NCBI GenBank assembly: GCA_003281795.1
Contig: QCAW01000001.1
Coordinates: forward strand, 15,206 to 79,205
Length of the DNA stretch: 64,000 nt
DNA from: Pelagibacteraceae bacterium AG-345-F21
GTDB taxonomy: Bacteria > Pseudomonadota > Alphaproteobacteria > Pelagibacterales > Pelagibacteraceae
Direction: 5' to 3'
In this document: one piece after another, positions 7,663 to 12,554 of the stretch
Numbering within the stretch: position 1 is the first letter of the stretch
How the letters are laid out: every line of letters begins with the position of its first letter
Position numbers and translations under genes: made by a program
The notes under the pieces: generated by a model
The model's input: only the letters and a program-made list of their open reading frames with translations
Databases searched by the model: none
What the model was told of the DNA's origin: nothing

Positions 7663-8457
7663 ATGAGCCAAAAACCCCCTCCTAAGCAATTTGTTAAAAC
7701 TCCAATAAATGGAACTAAATTTACATTATTAGTTTCTAGTGCAAAAGGCGGAGTTGGAAAATCTACGGTTGCAGTTAACCTTGCATTTGCTCTTCAAAAT
7801 TTAGGACTAAAAATTGGAATACTTGATGCAGATGTTTACGGTCCTTCATTACCAAAATTAATTAATTTAAATGAAAAGCCAAAAAGCGAAGATGGTAAAG
7901 CAATGTCACCCTTGGTAAAATATGACGCACAATTTATGTCTATGGGTTTTTTAGTTGATGAACAAACTCCAATGATTTGGAGAGGTCCAATGGTTATTAG
8001 TGCAATTAAAACAATGACGCAAAAAGTTTTGTGGAAAGATAGAGATATAATAATAATCGATATGCCACCAGGAACTGGTGACACACAATTAACTTTTGCT
8101 CAAGAAGTTAAAGTTGATGGAGCAATAATTGTTTCAACCCCTCAAGATTTAGCTTTGCTTGACGTTAAAAGAGGCATTCAAATGTTTGATAAAACTGGTG
8201 TTAAAATTTTAGGATTAATTGATAATATGAGTTATTTTAAAGGTGATGATGGTAAAGAATATAAAATTTTTGGAGAAAGTGGTGTTGAAAAAACTGCTAA
8301 AGAATTTAATAAAGAATTTTTAGGTCATTTACCAATTCATCAGGATTTAAGAAGTTCTGCTGACAGAGGAGATCCTTTAACTCACTCTAATCCTGATCAC
8401 GAAGTCTCTAAATTATTTAAGCAAATAGCTGAAAAAATTAAACAATCTTTTCAGTAA
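7663..8457 (+). CDS. mrp: Mrp/ApbC (NBP35) Fe-S cluster carrier ATPase
   Basis: [28 protein letters not shown]. Confidence 0.92.
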
Positions 8458-9385
8458 AATTAAAAGAAGTCATCAATTCATTCCATTCTCTTTTCGAAAG
8501 ACCAGAACTTTGAATGCTAACTTTTTCGCCTCTAACCATTTGTTGAATTACTTTTTTGCCTTTTGCAGAAACGTGCGCTGCACCTACTCTGTAATCTAAA
8601 AATGCAGAATGTGTTATTGGTACCCATTTTTTGACTGTGTCTAACATTGTTTCTGCGTAAACCCTAATTTCATATTGAGCGTGACTATCAGCTCTTAAAA
8701 ATAAAAAATTAAGCAAATTTAACAAATCAGTTTTCCAATACCATTGAGTATATGAATTTAAAGTTAAATTCATTCTGGCAAGTTCTCTAGCGAGACCTGC
8801 TTTTTTATCATCAATAGTTGAACCGTCAAACCTTTCGTTTAACATTTTTTCATAGTTGTCATAAGTTCTCGTGGCATCATCTTTTAAAATTTTTAAAACT
8901 TCATTTGCTTGTTCGCCAGTAATTAAATCTCCTCTTCCTTGTCTATTTGAAGTTGATTGAGCAGATAATTGTTCTTTTGAGGGAATATAAAATTCTTTAT
9001 CTAAAATAGAATATCTTGCTGAATATTCATTTACATTAGCAGTTCTGTGTCTTATCCATTGTCGAGCGATAAAAATTGGAAGTTTAACGTGATATTTTAT
9101 TTCGCACATTTCGAAAGGTGTTGAGTGCCAATGCCTCATTAAGTATTTTATTAAGCCTTCGTCAGTAGAAACTTTTTTTGTTCCTTTTCCATATGATACT
9201 CGAGCAGACTGAACTATAGAAGTATCATCTCCCATATAGTCTACAACTCTTACAAATCCATGATCTAAAACTGGTAGCGCCTCATAAAGAATTTTTTCTA
9301 GCTCAGGAGAAGTCACTCTTTTAGTTTGATTTTTTTGTGATTGTTGGTCAGCTATTTCTTGCTTTTGTTCTAATGTTAGTTTCAT
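8438..9385 (-). CDS. thyX: FAD-dependent thymidylate synthase
   Basis: [27 protein letters not shown] ThyX motif; start moved to ATG at 9385 (MKLTLEQ) because the longer ORF overlaps tmRNA. Confidence 0.95.
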
Positions 9386-9433
9386 TTTGAATAAATTTAT
9401 TGAATCTCTCGATAAGAGTTTTATATTAATAGT

Positions 9434-9693
9434 GTTGGTTTTCCAACTATGACGATAAACGAATTTCGTAATAAACATTACGGACGTGGGGGCAGTACCC
9501 ACCACCTCCACCATTTACAACTTACGGGGGTGAATTAGGATCGACGGATGTCTAAAGGCTATTCTTTCGTACGAGATGGTTCCGACGTAACGGGCCAATT
9601 TATAAATGCTAACGAAAGTTACGCACTTGCTGCTTAATTAACTTAGTTAATTAAGTTACGGGGTTTGGGGCACCTGGCAACAGAACGCCCCTT
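9434..9693 (+). ncRNA. ssrA: Permuted two-piece tmRNA (acceptor piece ~9434-9513 ending CCA; coding piece from 9526; tag ANESYALAA at 9608-9637)
   Basis: T-arm GTGGG-GGCAGTA-CCCAC then CACCTCCACCA; after a 12-nt spacer GGGGGTG completes the acceptor stem with G3:U70; ataaat-GCT AAC GAA AGT TAC GCA CTT GCT GCT TAA. Outer ends approximate. Confidence 0.93.
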
Positions 9694-9787
9694 CCAAAGA
9701 CTCAAAACTCCCGTTAAACAATAATTTTTAAAAAAGTGGGCACACTGGTGTCACAGTGAGAAAAGAAATTTTAGTGTGCGGGGGAAT

Positions 9788-10162
9788 TTAATTCATTTTT
9801 TTTCTCTCACAATCCCTATCAATCGTTTGCCAATCACCTTCTTCGAAAGGAATATTCATATCGTTTAAAACTTTTTTAAGCTTCTCCAACCTATCTGCTC
9901 TTCCATCAATACTTTTTAAAAACATACAAAACCATTTATAGGCAGATTTTTTTAAACACTTTTTATCAATATGAATCCAATTTTCAAAGTCCATACAATG
10001 AGGGGTATTATAAGTATATTCATCATAACTTATCTTTTTTCCATCATCACTCAATGAATCTAACCAGCAACAAATTTGATTTTTTCCCTCATCGATAACT
10101 TGATAGACTTTATAATGATCTGAAAGATCATCTGAATTAAAATCTAATTCTAGTTGTTTCAT
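9788..10162 (-). CDS. Hypothetical 124-aa protein (acidic, Cys/Trp-rich, N-terminal QLELDF)
   Basis: Clean ORF with ATG filling the intergenic space; no family recognised. Confidence 0.7.
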   Translation of the reverse strand: MKQLELDFNSDDLSDHYKVYQVIDEGKNQICCWLDSLSDDGKKISYDEYTYNTPHCMDFENWIHIDKKCLKKSAYKWFCMFLKSIDGRADRLEKLKKVLNDMNIPFEEGDWQTIDRDCERKKMN

Positions 10163-10244
10163 TTTCTAGCAGTTGTTGAAGTTTATACGTTAAAGAGCTT
10201 TAACAATTATTAATATAATGATTAAAAATGGCAAAAGTTTGGTG

Positions 10245-10541
10245 TTAAAGATTTAATAACTCTGCTATTGCAGTATAACTTAAATAAAAACAACCACAGC
10301 CAATCAAAAAATAAAAAACCAATGGTAGAGAGCCTTTAAGAGTCTCAAGATTTTTTGCGTTCTTAATCATTTTTTCAATTAAATCGTAGCACAAAAAAAA
10401 ACAACCAAAACCTAATATACTAAATATCAAAAACCCAAAAACTGTAATTGAAGCATCAAAAGAAAGAATTGCTCCAAAAATAGCAAAACCTATGAAAAAT
10501 ATAGCTATAGGTTCACTAATTAACCTTAAAAGTTTTTTCAT
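10245..10541 (-). CDS. Hypothetical 98-aa membrane protein (~3 TM helices)
   Basis: Three hydrophobic stretches; GGGGAA SD-like sequence upstream. Confidence 0.7.
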   Translation of the reverse strand: MKKLLRLISEPIAIFFIGFAIFGAILSFDASITVFGFLIFSILGFGCFFLCYDLIEKMIKNAKNLETLKGSLPLVFYFLIGCGCFYLSYTAIAELLNL

Positions 10542-10590
10542 TATAATAATTCCCCGAAAACTTGATCTTTATTTAAACCCGATTTTTTAC

Positions 10591-11961
10591 TTAATTTATC
10601 CAATTAATATTCTTATTTAATTTATTGTAGGTTTTTACCTTTTTATTATCAATCCAACACAATGTAATATTAAGGTCCTCCATTAAATCTAACAAATAAC
10701 TGTATTTATTCATTAATTTCATCGGATCACTACTTAGTGCAAGATACATTTCTACTTTATCAGGTAATAATTTTTCGTTTTGATATCTTATTTTATATTC
10801 TAATAGTTTTATTATTCCATTTCTTATTTGTTCTTTTAAATTTTGACTTTTCCAAGTTTTAATTTCGAAGAGTTTTCCAATACCATTTAGTTCAGTATAT
10901 AGATCAAATTGTGCCCCTTTGTGCTGTAAATTCTTTTCTTTTAATTTTTTAGCAATAATTTTTACAGTTTCCTCATGTTGCATAGTAGCTTTTTCTAATA
11001 GTTCTAATTTACTTTGATTTTTTTCCTCTAGATTTAAACCACCTTTGGGTTGCCATTTTTTTGCAACTTTATTTATATCAATATCGCTTAATTTTATTGG
11101 GGATGGGTTATTAAATATTTCTTTTGGTATCTCTTTTTTAAAGTATTTAGTTTTTTCATTCGCAACAAAGTTCTCTTTTCTAACTAATTTAAAGTTACAA
11201 ATTTTGAAACCATCTACACCTTTAGAATACCAGAAATCATTGATAAGATATTTACCATCATATCTATAACCGTTTTTAGGTGCGTAATCTGAATTCAAAT
11301 TACTACCTCTAAAAACTCTTACTGGTATGTTCCAGTTGCAATTAAATACTAAAGATTTGTTAAATGTATTTTCAAATGATTGGTTTGAGTTTTGTTTACC
11401 GGTTTTTTCATCTCTTCCGCCCTGACCAATGTAAATTACTTCTTCTCCTCGGTCATAGGTTTCATCAACGTAACCTCCGGATAATACTACTGCTTTTGCG
11501 ACCCCTTGGTTTTGAGATATTCCAAATACTGTATTATTATGTAGCTCTGCCTTAAGAATTTCTTTCCTATCTTTAAATATTTTACCTTCTTTATGTTCTT
11601 CAACTTTTTTAAAATTTGAAACATTTAGTTTATCTAAATCTATATCTTTATAAATAATTGGATTTCTTTCTTTGCCCCAAAATTCTGGGATTGAAATTTC
11701 TGTATATTCTCTAAATCTAATTTTATATCTGCCTGGTCCATAAGGTGACTTTATAATTTCTTTTATTTTTCCAATTAAAAAAGCCTCTCTATGTTTCTCT
11801 TTGCCATGCCAAATTTTTCTTGCATCGTGTCTGTTTCTTGTGCAGATAATATATTTACATTTTGATGCTTTTATAGGATTTAATTTCCAAGACTCTGAAG
11901 TTTCTTTGAGCACAATCTCATCAATACTTTTGTATGTAAGTACTACAATTGTGTTTGGCAT
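10591..11961 (-). CDS. SRA/YDG-domain protein with C-terminal PD-(D/E)xK-like nuclease; candidate type IV modification-dependent restriction endonuclease
   Basis: SRA signature VVLSGGY..D.GEEVIYIGQGG, PVRVFRG, GYRYDGKY (aa ~125-262); FDLY..LFEIKT (D353/E366/K368); extra ~110-aa N-terminal domain. Confidence 0.8.
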   Translation of the reverse strand: MPNTIVVLTYKSIDEIVLKETSESWKLNPIKASKCKYIICTRNRHDARKIWHGKEKHREAFLIGKIKEIIKSPYGPGRYKIRFREYTEISIPEFWGKERNPIIYKDIDLDKLNVSNFKKVEEHKEGKIFKDRKEILKAELHNNTVFGISQNQGVAKAVVLSGGYVDETYDRGEEVIYIGQGGRDEKTGKQNSNQSFENTFNKSLVFNCNWNIPVRVFRGSNLNSDYAPKNGYRYDGKYLINDFWYSKGVDGFKICNFKLVRKENFVANEKTKYFKKEIPKEIFNNPSPIKLSDIDINKVAKKWQPKGGLNLEEKNQSKLELLEKATMQHEETVKIIAKKLKEKNLQHKGAQFDLYTELNGIGKLFEIKTWKSQNLKEQIRNGIIKLLEYKIRYQNEKLLPDKVEMYLALSSDPMKLMNKYSYLLDLMEDLNITLCWIDNKKVKTYNKLNKNINWIN

Positions 11962-12073
11962 AAATATTAATATAACCTAGCATAAGTTTGGACGCATCTG
12001 TGACGCAATTTTCATCAAAGTTTTAGATTTTATGCAATTGCAAATGGCGTATAATAAGGAATAATGTTACAAA

Positions 12074-12104
12074 GTTCGGGGCACCAGGTAATAGAACACC
12101 CCTT
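12074..12104 (+). repeat. Degenerate direct repeat of the tmRNA coding-piece 3' end (copy of 9663-9693)
   Basis: gttcggggcaccaggtaatagaacacccctt vs gtttggggcacctggcaacagaacgcccctt, 26/31 identical, ungapped. Confidence 0.8.
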
Positions 12105-12186
12105 AAAAGATATATTTATCGCCTAGATAAATTAGTATTCCTGCAGCAATACCTAGTAAAATCCAATGATAATTTTCTTTCATCAT
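12103..12186 (-). CDS. 27-aa single-TM small protein MMKENYHWILLGIAAGILIYLGDKYIF
   Basis: ATGA overlap with the stop of the upstream MazG-like gene; hydrophobic core. Confidence 0.55.
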   Translation of the reverse strand: MMKENYHWILLGIAAGILIYLGDKYIF

Positions 12187-12554
12187 ACAACGAACTTGCT
12201 TAAATCAGGTTTAAAATAGTTTGGCCCTTTCATTACTTTGCCTTTATCGTTATAAATCGGTCTTCCATCTGAGCCTAATTTACTCATATTAGAATTTTGA
12301 ACTTCTTTAAAACATTTGTCTAAATTAATACCGAATGCATGACCGGCTCCATAAGTAACATATAATATGTCAGTTAAAGCATCTGCTACTTCTTTTATAT
12401 CCTTTTTTTTTATAGCGTCTTTAAACTCTTCAAGCTCTTCCTCTATTAGGTCGTATCTAAGAGACGTAATTTTATCATGTGGAAATTCAGCTTTTTCTTT
12501 AATTTCTTGACCAAAAATTTCCATAAATTTTTTAACACTCTCAAAATTAGTCAT
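12183..12554 (-). CDS. MazG-like nucleoside triphosphate pyrophosphohydrolase (PRA-PH family)
   Basis: LIEEELEEF...EVADALTDILYVTYG...EVQNSNMSK. Confidence 0.9.
   Translation of the reverse strand: MTNFESVKKFMEIFGQEIKEKAEFPHDKITSLRYDLIEEELEEFKDAIKKKDIKEVADALTDILYVTYGAGHAFGINLDKCFKEVQNSNMSKLGSDGRPIYNDKGKVMKGPNYFKPDLSKFVV

What the first reader, a model, noticed from the sequence alone, without database searches (positions are those of the whole stretch)
10591..11961. Candidate two-reader modification-dependent restriction enzyme: N-terminal PUA-like domain + SRA/YDG + PD-(D/E)xK
Seen in sequence: aa ~125-262 carry a full SRA/YDG signature (LSGGY, GEEVIYIGQGG, PVRVFRG, GYRYDG). aa ~320-456 carry a QHEE..FDLY..FEIKT..QIR.GI.KLLEY restriction-nuclease-like motif rather than an HNH. 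aa 1-110 form a separate domain (SWKL..YIICTRN..AFLIGKI..RYKIRF..W..RNPIIY). No methyltransferase is nearby. Established: SRA domains flip and bind 5mC/5hmC, and SRA-HNH and MspJI-type SRA/PD-(D/E)xK proteins are type IV restriction enzymes. Inference: the extra N-terminal domain resembles PUA-superfamily (EVE/YTH-like) readers, so one polypeptide may sense two DNA modifications. That would be a compact anti-phage system against modified phage DNA in a lineage with few defence genes.
Basis: partly seen in the sequence, partly recalled or inferred. Interest (0 to 1): 0.85.

Follow-up and report, generated by a model that had tools for sequence, protein, structure and literature searches.

The report
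SAR11 three-domain modified-DNA restriction nuclease
A rare gene in a marine SAR11 bacterium encodes a single protein that joins two predicted modified-base-reading domains to a DNA-cutting domain; it is most likely a defence enzyme that cuts chemically modified phage DNA, a new family of an already known kind of enzyme.

Summary
ORF 10591-11961 (-) encodes a 456-aa protein. Its central SRA domain matches Pfam at E 1e-33, and TagI is the best solved relative. AlphaFold models with fold searches show that aa 324-456 is a PD-(D/E)xK nuclease (XisH Z 10.1; D353, E366 and K368 invariant) and that aa 1-117 has a PUA-like fold. All top 24 structural neighbours of the N-domain are YTH, EVE, ASCH, McrB-N or CMoRE-type readers, at modest Z of 5-7.8. 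All three domains are under purifying selection (dN/dS about 0.08).

The gene lies on a 2.4-kb islet inserted at the tmRNA 3' end and bounded by a 45-nt direct repeat. One relative has the empty site. Others carry different defence-type cargo there, including a McrB-N+DUF3883 nuclease. No C5 DNA methyltransferase was found in the host assembly.

The full architecture was found in only two of about 186,000 species genomes, both SAR11, plus marine metagenomes. It matches no PADLOC model. The two-reader idea is not new: YenY4I (EVE-DUF3427-PD-(D/E)XK), ScoMcrA and HHPV4I are precedents.

[quoted passage not shown] The N-domain's ligand and the enzyme's activity are untested. Another first-reader note in this scan flags the same islet.

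The parts
10591..11961 (-). Whole gene, 456 aa plus stop codon (protein P0001)
   Evidence: ORF list and translation. Single copy in the assembly. dN/dS is 0.084 against the 96%-identical copy in AG-915-K22.
11611..11961 (-). N-terminal domain, aa 1-117: PUA-like beta-barrel, an unnamed family that matches phrog_37247
   Evidence: AF2 model of the domain alone has pLDDT 86.8 and pTM 0.83. The top 24 VIA-align hits are YTH, EVE, ASCH, McrB-N, CMoRE or DrmA-N, Z 5.0-7.8. Foldseek's best E is 5e-3. Atlas TM is 0.60-0.67 to N-domains of nuclease fusions and to EVE. phrog_37247 matches at E 5.5e-17. There is no Pfam hit. Invariant residues are T9, W25, Y37, C40, A60, F61, L62, I66 and I81.
11173..11610 (-). 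SRA/YDG domain, aa 118-263
   Evidence: Pfam PF02182 E 1.1e-33. TagI 6ghs: phmmer E 6e-27, Z 21.4, rmsd 2.0. Y164 and Y177 align with the UHRF1 pocket tyrosines and E167 aligns with the pocket Asp (the UHRF1 residue roles are from my own knowledge).
10993..11172 (-). Linker, aa 264-323, predicted disordered
   Evidence: pLDDT is below 50 for aa 276-323 in the full-length model. Its sequence and length vary in distant homologs.
10594..10992 (-). C-terminal PD-(D/E)xK nuclease domain, aa 324-456 (XisH/NucS/Mrr-like)
   Evidence: VIA-align hits: XisH 2okf Z 10.1 with 116 residues aligned; also Can2, AF1548, CdiA-CT, NucS, McrC, Card1, BstEII, BsmI and PaqCI, Z 6.5-8.9. Invariant residues are H329, D353, E366, K368, T369, Q378 and R380. 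The helix and strand order fits the nuclease core. Language-model neighbours are XisH, NucS_C and Mrr_cat.
9396..9695 (+). Permuted alphaproteobacterial tmRNA gene (ssrA), the integration site
   Evidence: Rfam RF01849 at 224 bits, E 6.6e-65. ARAGORN finds a permuted tmRNA.
9649..9693 (+). Proximal copy of the 45-nt direct repeat (the true tmRNA 3' end), attL-like
   Evidence: the repeat finder family D1. The core motif occurs only twice in the genome, with 0 in the control.
12060..12104 (+). Distal degenerate copy of the tmRNA 3' end (35/45 identical), attR-like islet boundary
   Evidence: Rfam's tmRNA model gives a weak hit at 12024-12105, E 0.05. It is 91% identical to the distal copy in relative G035.
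9788..10162 (-). Islet ORF of 124 aa, no recognisable family; not co-inherited with the SRA gene
   Evidence: No Pfam, NCBIfam, PADLOC or PHROG hit. Absent next to the homologs in L019, L001 and L020.
10245..10541 (-). Islet ORF of 98 aa, hydrophobic and probably a membrane protein; not co-inherited with the SRA gene
   Evidence: Translation. Only weak sub-threshold hits. Absent from other loci that carry homologs.

Best explanation
[quoted passage not shown] Inferred mechanism: the central SRA domain flips a modified cytosine (5mC, 5hmC or a derivative) out of invading DNA into a pocket formed by Y164, Y177 and E167. A roughly 50-residue flexible linker tethers a PD-(D/E)xK nuclease (D353, E366, K368), which cuts nearby DNA, probably after dimerising with a second bound molecule. 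[quoted passage not shown] The host is spared because it lacks cytosine-5 DNA methylation. What is shown: the domain identities and folds, the conserved catalytic and pocket residues, purifying selection on all three domains, and the mobile islet in a defence context. What is inferred: modification dependence, the nature of the modification, the cleavage geometry and the N-domain's ligand.
For: SRA: Pfam E 1.1e-33. The closest solved relative is the modification-dependent enzyme TagI. Pocket residues are aligned. Nuclease: every C-domain structural neighbour is a PD-(D/E)xK enzyme, led by XisH at Z 10.1, and MspJI and AspBHI align across SRA plus nuclease at Z 8.8-9.4. D353, E366 and K368 are invariant down to 25% identity. 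Language-model neighbours are XisH, NucS and Mrr. N-domain: 24 of its top 24 structural hits are PUA-superfamily readers, including the sensing domains of VcaM4I, CMoRE/PD-T4-3 and archaeal McrB. Atlas neighbours are N-terminal domains fused to GIY-YIG, HNH, PDDEXK_7 and Vsr-like nucleases. Selection: dN/dS is 0.07-0.12 in each domain. Context: the gene lies on a 2.4-kb insertion at the tmRNA 3' end with a 45-nt direct repeat. G002 has the empty site. At the same site G022 has a McrB-N+DUF3883 nuclease matching PADLOC PD-T4-1 and PDC-S36, and G035 has a defence-type protease. A homolog in L001 follows an integrase and sits with two DNA methyltransferases, a DpdA-like TGT and a helicase. The stand-alone N-domain protein P0135 lies beside an Mrr-ResIII gene. 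No C5 methyltransferase was found in the host. The gene was found in none of 60 relatives searched.
Against: There are no biochemical data. PADLOC and NCBIfam do not recognise the protein. The N-domain matches are middling: Z is below 8, a level the tool says is common for models without true relatives, and there is no Pfam hit. I could not inspect a binding pocket. The pocket acid is Glu rather than the usual Asp. In HHPV4I the SRA domain was dispensable and the enzyme was m6A-dependent (PMC10101028), so an SRA domain does not prove cytosine-modification dependence. YenY4I, the nearest architectural analogue, had only weak activity (PMC6765204). The host assembly is 85% complete, so a methyltransferase could have been missed.
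Confidence: 0.65

Rival explanations
1. [quoted passage not shown] Instead it serves as an oligomerisation, autoinhibition or general DNA/RNA-binding module, or it senses a free modified nucleotide, as in the PUA-Cal-HAD systems.
For: N-domain fold matches are only Z 5-7.8 with 6-19% identity. There is no Pfam EVE, YTH or ASCH hit. Lutz et al. found a conserved base pocket in SRA and EVE domains but not in PUA domains proper (section heading in PMC6765204). Its top structural hit is the N-terminus of DISARM DrmA, whose role I do not know. A 2026 preprint reports a PUA module that binds free m6-dAMP (listed). The SRA+nuclease pair exists without this domain (P0150) or with a HARE-HTH in its place (P0040).
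Against: Almost all structural neighbours are proven modified-base binders, including the sensor domains of three characterised modification-dependent nucleases. Conserved aromatic residues (W25, Y37, F61, Y104) would suit a base cage. The domain is under purifying selection.
Confidence: 0.25
2. It is not a restriction enzyme. It could be a mobile-element maintenance or addiction function, or a host DNA repair or epigenetic factor that reads methylated DNA, or its nuclease fold could act like XisH as a recombination directionality or excision-control factor for the islet.
For: The best C-domain structural hit is XisH, an excision-controlling factor, and the language-model search also points to XisH. 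The islet has no integrase of its own. The gene moves as a single-gene cassette bounded by att-like repeats.
Against: The D...ExK catalytic triad is invariant. An SRA fused to a nuclease is the hallmark of type IV enzymes such as TagI and MspJI (PMC6765204). Defence genes occupy the same hotspot in relatives and surround homologs elsewhere. A host without C5 methylation has nothing for an SRA-based epigenetic factor to read.
Confidence: 0.07
3. It is a decaying or inactive remnant carried by a degraded islet and has no current function.
For: The islet lacks an integrase and its distal repeat is degenerate, with 35 of 45 positions identical. The gene is very rare.
Against: The full-length ORF is intact in 12 clusters at 62-96% identity. 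dN/dS is 0.084. All catalytic and pocket residues are retained.
Confidence: 0.03

Closest known systems
YenY4I group (Lutz et al. 2019, NAR, PMC6765204)
   Same: [quoted passage not shown] SauUSI's DUF3427 aligns structurally onto this protein's SRA domain at Z 7.8. The authors explicitly proposed two modification-sensing domains. YenY4I showed weak 5mC/5hmC-dependent cleavage in Mn2+ buffer.
   Different: No sequence-level relation was detected. Here the middle domain is a canonical Pfam SRA, not DUF3427. The nuclease is not DUF3883/NOV_C and the N-domain is not a Pfam EVE. This protein has 456 aa against about 600. It is confined to SAR11.
MspJI / AspBHI / LpnPI family (SRA-like + PD-(D/E)xK type IV enzymes)
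   Same: An SRA-type reader sits N-terminal to a PD-(D/E)xK nuclease. The model aligns to MspJI (Z 8.8, 215 residues) and AspBHI (Z 9.4, 226 residues) across both domains.
   Different: phmmer found no sequence similarity at E up to 1. The large rmsd (13-14.5 A) shows a different or undefined domain arrangement. This protein has a long disordered linker and an extra N-terminal PUA-like domain.
TagI / ScoA3IV (SRA-HNH type IV enzymes)
   Same: These have the closest SRA domain: 38-40% identity, E 6e-27, Z 21.4. Like this protein they lack the CpG-specific NKR finger and are single-chain modification-dependent enzymes.
   Different: Their nuclease is HNH, not PD-(D/E)xK, and they have no N-terminal extra domain.
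ScoMcrA (SBD + SRA + HNH) and HHPV4I (SRA + wH + HNH)
   Same: Both are characterised enzymes that combine an SRA with a second modification or sequence reader in one chain. ScoMcrA was a structural hit at Z 13.4. HHPV4I is described in PMC10101028.
   Different: The second reader is a sulfur-binding or winged-helix domain, not a PUA-like domain, and the nuclease is HNH. In HHPV4I the SRA domain was dispensable.
CMoRE / PD-T4-3 (GIY-YIG + C-terminal 5hmC sensor; PMC12923530, PDB 9u75) and VcaM4I (EVE-HNH)
   Same: Their sensing domains are among the nearest structural neighbours of the N-domain: Z 7.2 at 18% identity for CMoRE and Z 6.9 for VcaM4I.
   Different: Each has a single reader and a different nuclease, and no significant sequence similarity was found.

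Membership tests
SAD_SRA (Pfam PF02182) | Match to the family profile above its gathering score | tested here: met
   116.5 bits against a cut-off of 30.7, aa 118-263, covering profile positions 3-146 of 148.
SAD_SRA (Pfam PF02182) | Base-flipping pocket: two stacking Tyr and an acidic residue (UHRF1 Y466, Y478, D469; residue roles from my own knowledge) | tested here: met
   Y164 and Y177 align with the two Tyr and are invariant in the family. E167 aligns with the Asp, a conservative change. Geometry was not inspected.
PD-(D/E)xK nuclease superfamily | Alpha-beta-beta-beta-alpha-beta core fold | tested here: met
   Secondary-structure order is H327-342, E354-358, E361-368, H372-395, E403-409. 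All structural neighbours of the C-domain are PD-(D/E)xK proteins, with XisH at Z 10.1, rmsd 2.9 and 116 residues aligned.
PD-(D/E)xK nuclease superfamily | Catalytic D ... (D/E)-x-K on strands beta2 and beta3 | tested here: met
   D353 lies at the start of the 354-358 strand and E366-x-K368 at the end of the 361-368 strand. All three are invariant in 14 sequences down to 25% identity.
PD-(D/E)xK nuclease superfamily | Match to a curated sequence family (Pfam PDDEXK_*, Mrr_cat, NOV_C, XisH) | tested here: not met
   The query has no Pfam hit. Homolog P0040 has only a sub-threshold PDDEXK_9 hit, E 0.029. The C-domain profile found nothing in PDB sequences.
PUA-like superfamily (EVE / YTH / ASCH readers) | PUA-like beta-barrel fold | tested here: met
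   The top 24 VIA-align hits are all of this superfamily, Z 5.0-7.8 with about 100 of 117 residues aligned. Foldseek gives probabilities of 0.85-1.0 to DrmA-N, YTH and CMoRE but E no better than 5e-3. Atlas gives TM 0.61 to a cluster that is 99% Pfam EVE. Z below 8 is modest, so I put the fold assignment at about 85%.
PUA-like superfamily (EVE / YTH / ASCH readers) | Sequence membership of Pfam EVE, YTH or ASCH | tested here: not met
   No such hit at E up to 1 for the query, or up to 0.1 for P0135, P0160 and P0173. The only match is phrog_37247, of unknown function.
PUA-like superfamily (EVE / YTH / ASCH readers) | Aromatic or hydrophobic cage that accommodates a flipped modified base | not testable with these tools
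   Model coordinates cannot be inspected here. Conserved aromatics W25, Y37, F61 and Y104 are candidates only.
YenY4I group | EVE + DUF3427 + DUF3883-type PD-(D/E)XK domains | tested here: not met
   Pfam detects none of the three families in the query. The resemblance is in architecture and fold only.
MspJI family | Sequence homology to MspJI, AspBHI or LpnPI | tested here: not met
   None of them appears in the phmmer search of PDB sequences at E up to 1. Only structural similarity was found, at Z 8.8-9.4.
Type IV modification-dependent restriction enzymes (functional class) | Cleavage requires modified DNA, and there is no cognate methyltransferase | not testable with these tools
   The activity is untested. 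It is consistent that no methyltransferase lies in the islet and no C5 methyltransferase was found in the 85%-complete host assembly.
Known defence systems in PADLOC-DB v2 | Match to any PADLOC model | tested here: not met
   No hit at E up to 1.

The most novel reading that the evidence does not exclude
The N-domain founds a new PUA-like reader family specific for a modification other than the one read by the SRA domain, for example a pelagiphage hypermodified base, 6mA outside the host's own methylation motif, or a deazaguanine. The enzyme would then integrate two marks in one 456-aa chain. The phage-borne stand-alone copies of the same domain (phrog_37247, found in jumbo Brevundimonas phages) would act as decoys or shields that counter such enzymes. 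This would give SAR11, a lineage with few defences, a compact dual-sensor restriction system shuffled as a one-gene cassette at the tmRNA hotspot.
Probability: 0.2. Interest if true: 0.7.

Novelty: new variant of a known kind. Interest (0 to 1): 0.5.

Why it matters
SAR11 is the most abundant bacterial lineage in the surface ocean. It is heavily preyed on by pelagiphages, yet its streamlined genomes carry few recognised defences. A confirmed single-gene modification-dependent nuclease would imply that some pelagiphages carry modified cytosines. It would also show how defence is exchanged in streamlined genomes, as one-gene cassettes swapped at the tmRNA 3' end. Compact modification-dependent nucleases with new reader domains are also useful as epigenomic tools, as MspJI, AbaSI and CMoRE have been. 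The N-domain family has no Pfam entry and also occurs in phages, so it is a candidate new reader or counter-defence module.

Tried and rejected
- PADLOC and NCBIfam on the protein and its islet neighbours gave no hits.
- Word-index homolog searches restricted to the N-domain and the C-domain added almost nothing beyond the full-length family.
- The C-domain profile against PDB sequences gave no hits at E up to 10.
- Foldseek on the full model returned only SRA hits. The other domains needed the wide VIA-align search and a separate N-domain model.
- The search for related loci with the N-domain alignment failed because it has no sufficiently conserved stretch.
- The viral-contig scan with the full protein found no relatives.
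- The GenBank phage collection returned only the N-domain in two Brevundimonas jumbo phages, and every neighbouring gene there is hypothetical.
- The idea that the 124-aa islet ORF is a conserved partner was rejected. It has no similarity to the 123-aa ORF downstream of the homolog in L001, and it is absent beside the copies in L019 and L020.
- The idea that the repeat motif is a dispersed genome-wide element was rejected. It occurs exactly twice in the genome.
- The language-model search for the N-domain gave only sub-threshold leads, scores 0.76-0.81.
- I considered whether the N-domain is a second diverged SRA. No SRA structures appear among its top 50 neighbours, so it belongs nearer the EVE/YTH/ASCH branch.
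Full report
The minus-strand ORF 10591-11961 encodes 456 aa. Pfam assigns aa 118-263 to SAD_SRA at 116.5 bits against a cut-off of 30.7, E 1.1e-33. Neither flank matches any Pfam, NCBIfam or PADLOC model. The best solved relative by sequence is the SRA domain of the modification-dependent enzyme TagI (E 6e-27, about 40% identity), followed by the plant SUVH and animal UHRF1/2 SRA domains.

**2. Family and conservation.**
- Two searches, a word-index search of 5.8 billion proteins and an exhaustive phmmer search of 1.84 billion representatives, found only about a dozen full-length clusters at 62-96% identity. All are from marine metagenomes or single-cell genomes.
- The other roughly 2,200 hits share only the SRA domain. 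Most of those annotated with Pfam domains in the word-index search are ~290-aa SRA-HNH proteins.
- Distant relatives show that the architecture is modular:
  - P0150 has SRA plus the same C-domain and no N-domain.
  - P0040 has a weak HARE-HTH where this protein has its N-domain.
  - P0135, P0173 and P0188 are stand-alone N-domains with a short conserved C-terminal tail.
  - P0160 is a tandem pair of N-domains.
- Across 14 sequences down to 25% identity, the invariant C-domain positions are H329, D353, E366, K368, T369, Q378 and R380.
- Against the 96%-identical copy in SAG AG-915-K22, dN/dS is 0.084 overall. It is 0.11 for the N-domain, 0.07 for SRA and 0.08 for the C-domain, though the substitution counts are small.

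**3. Structure.**
- The full-length AlphaFold2 model has mean pLDDT 79.6. It shows three confident domains and a disordered linker at aa 276-323.
- Foldseek on the whole model returned only SRA hits.
- The Foldseek-independent search against 48,161 PDB representatives separated the domains:
  - SRA matched TagI at Z 21.4.
  - The C-domain (aa 325-456) matched only PD-(D/E)xK proteins: XisH (Z 10.1, rmsd 2.9, 116 residues), Can2, AF1548, CdiA-CT, NucS, McrC, Card1 and several type II enzymes.
  - MspJI (Z 8.8) and AspBHI (Z 9.4) aligned across SRA plus nuclease.
- The helix and strand order places D353 at the start of one strand and E366-x-K368 at the end of the next, which is the canonical catalytic geometry. 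Language-model neighbours of the C-domain are XisH, NucS_C, Mrr_cat and PDDEXK families.
- The N-domain folded alone has pLDDT 86.8 and pTM 0.83. Its top 24 neighbours, at Z 5.0-7.8 with about 100 of 117 residues aligned, are all PUA-superfamily modified-base readers or their kin. They are the DrmA N-terminus, Mmi1/YTHDC/YTHDF YTH domains, EVE domains (PH1033, THYN1 bound to 5mC DNA, VcaM4I), ASCH, two archaeal McrB N-domains, and the 5hmC-sensing domain of CMoRE/PD-T4-3, which has the highest identity at 18%.
- Below those hits the list falls to Lon-N and unrelated folds. Foldseek agrees in kind but only weakly, with best E 5e-3.
- In the ESM Atlas the N-domain matches three clusters of stand-alone hypothetical proteins at TM 0.87-0.88. 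It then matches N-terminal domains fused to GIY-YIG, HNH, PDDEXK_7 and Vsr-like nucleases, and an EVE cluster, at TM 0.60-0.67.
- The tool warns that Z below 8 can be a common arrangement. The assignment therefore rests on the coherence of the hit list, not on any single score. I could not inspect a ligand pocket.

**4. SRA pocket.** In the HMMER alignment to UHRF1, Y164 and Y177 align with the two tyrosines that sandwich flipped 5mC. E167 aligns with the pocket aspartate. The CpG-reading NKR finger is absent, as in TagI. The UHRF1 residue roles come from my own knowledge of that structure.

**5. Genomic context.**
- A permuted alphaproteobacterial tmRNA gene lies at 9396-9695 (Rfam, 224 bits).
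- Its last 45 nt (9649-9693) recur at 12060-12104 with 35 of 45 positions identical. This was the top repeat family in the region. Rfam's tmRNA model also gives that site a weak hit.
- The 25-nt core motif occurs exactly twice in the 975-kb assembly, with zero in the control.
- The 2.4 kb between the two copies holds the SRA gene and two small unrelated ORFs.
- Relative G002 has the empty site, with tmRNA followed about 80 bp later by the MazG-like gene and fumarase.
- Relatives G035 and G022 have their own distal copies of the tmRNA end, with different cargo in between:
  - G022 carries a 409-aa MrcB_N + NOV_C/DUF3883 protein that matches PADLOC PDC-S36 and PD-T4-1. This is another reader-nuclease fusion.
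  - G035 carries a trypsin-like protease that matches defence-associated PADLOC models.
- The tmRNA 3' end is therefore a recurrent cassette hotspot in this genus. A SAR11 pangenome study likewise reports one flexible island linked to a tmRNA and cassette insertions marked by partial tRNA repeats (PMC11796062).

**6. Distribution.**
- None of 60 relatives searched (36 in the same genus) has the protein.
- A pattern scan of one genome for each of about 186,000 species found the full architecture in two, both Pelagibacteraceae single-cell genomes.
- In AG-915-K22, nucleotide homology to the window is limited to the ORF plus about 6-12 nt on either side. The gene is again bracketed by a tmRNA-end-like motif and a distal-type motif. 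There it lies between core genes with no tmRNA gene nearby. That could be a real secondary site or a single-cell assembly chimera; I cannot tell which.
- In AG-325-E08 the homolog lies about 110 bp from a tRNA gene and directly follows a DUF6994 ORF.
- In metagenomic contig L001 the homolog follows a phage-type integrase. It sits with a weak EVE-like ORF, two N6/N4 DNA methyltransferases, a DpdA-like TGT and a large helicase.
- The stand-alone N-domain protein P0135 lies beside an Mrr_cat_2-ResIII gene.
- The N-domain matches phrog_37247, of unknown function. Stand-alone copies occur in two 348-kb Brevundimonas phages.

**7. Host compatibility.** The 85%-complete assembly has no PF00145 C5 methyltransferase and no Dam-type PF02086 enzyme. 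It has one strong N6/N4 enzyme, which I infer to be CcrM-like, about 73 kb from the SRA gene. There is also one small weak methyltransferase-like hit. This is compatible with carrying an enzyme directed at modified cytosine, but the assembly is incomplete.

**8. Mechanism.** The most likely reading is a single-chain type IV restriction endonuclease.
- The SRA domain flips a modified cytosine out of the DNA.
- A PD-(D/E)xK domain on a flexible tether cuts nearby, probably as a dimer.
- The PUA-like N-domain provides a second reading or binding surface.
- The folds, conserved residues, selection and context are shown. Modification dependence, target identity, cut geometry and the N-domain's ligand are inferred.

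**9. Comparison with what is known.**
- The layout of a PUA-superfamily domain, an SRA-like sensor and a PD-(D/E)xK nuclease was described for YenY4I. Its authors proposed two modification-sensing domains and found weak 5mC/5hmC-dependent activity (PMC6765204).
- ScoMcrA (SBD+SRA+HNH; a structural hit) and HHPV4I (SRA+wH+HNH; PMC10101028) also pair an SRA with a second reader. In HHPV4I the SRA domain was dispensable, which is a caution for this reading.
- This protein shares no detectable sequence family with YenY4I or MspJI outside the SRA domain. Its N- and C-domains have no Pfam family, and it is absent from PADLOC.
- I therefore rate it a new variant of a known kind, not a new category.

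**10. Verdict.**
- Interest is moderate. It is a new, very rare, SAR11-restricted type IV candidate. It has an uncharacterised PUA-like domain that phages also carry, and it moves as a one-gene cassette at a tmRNA hotspot.
- Another first-reader note in this scan (e1-5478221) flags the same islet. My independent tests agree with it.

Noticed in passing
window 9396-12104; L015 (G035), L016 (G022), L017 (G002): The tmRNA 3' end is a recurrent cassette hotspot in this SAR11 genus. G002 has the empty site. G022 carries a McrB-N+DUF3883 nuclease and G035 carries a defence-type trypsin-like protease followed by a second mini-islet (DUF2784), each bounded by copies of the tmRNA end. The distal copies in three genomes share a diverged flank that differs from the true tmRNA.
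   Followed up: yes
L019 7814-7839 and 9454-9486 (AG-915-K22): The 96%-identical SRA gene is bracketed by tmRNA-end-like motifs but lies between fatty-acid synthesis genes and a tautomerase on one side and PNPase and RbfA on the other, with no tmRNA gene nearby. This is either a secondary integration site or a single-cell assembly chimera.
   Followed up: partly
P0135, P0173, P0188; phages ON529851 and ON529853 (L059 3965-4468): Stand-alone N-domain proteins (phrog_37247) end in a conserved tail of about 26 aa (consensus L-T-x-x-x-A-x-x-G-L ... I-E-I-x-I-R-G). They occur in jumbo Brevundimonas phages and beside an Mrr-ResIII gene. They may be a sensor or an anti-restriction decoy.
   Followed up: partly
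L001 3-8026 (metagenome contig with homolog P0010): This is an integrase-headed island. It holds the SRA nuclease homolog, a weak EVE-like 137-aa ORF, two N6/N4 DNA methyltransferases, a DpdA-like TGT (PADLOC DpdA E 8e-9), a 283-aa unknown ORF and an 1129-aa helicase with an RNase_H_2 domain. It may be a deazaguanine-type DNA modification and defence island.
   Followed up: partly
window 8438-9514 (-): The listed ThyX ORF start overlaps the tmRNA gene on the opposite strand (9396-9514). The real start is probably the internal Met near residue 43, because G022 aligns in one piece only from residue 42, and in G002 only the first 29 residues match, within its tmRNA gene.
   Followed up: partly
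window 9788-10162 (-) and 10245-10541 (-): The two small islet ORFs (124 aa, and a hydrophobic 98 aa) have no family in Pfam, NCBIfam, PADLOC or PHROGs and do not travel with the SRA gene. Their function is unknown. Another first-reader note suggests a clamp-binding motif at the N-terminus of the 124-aa ORF, which I did not test.
   Followed up: no
L020 2616-3314: In AG-325-E08 a DUF6994 protein (Pfam E 1e-90) ends with a 4-nt overlap onto the start of the SRA-nuclease homolog, which suggests co-transcription there. No such gene accompanies the window's copy.
   Followed up: no
window 12183-12554 (-): The MazG-like pyrophosphohydrolase next to the islet strongly matches phage families (phrog_671, E 2.6e-42). 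It is nevertheless part of the conserved chromosomal flank, since it is also present at the empty site in G002.
   Followed up: partly
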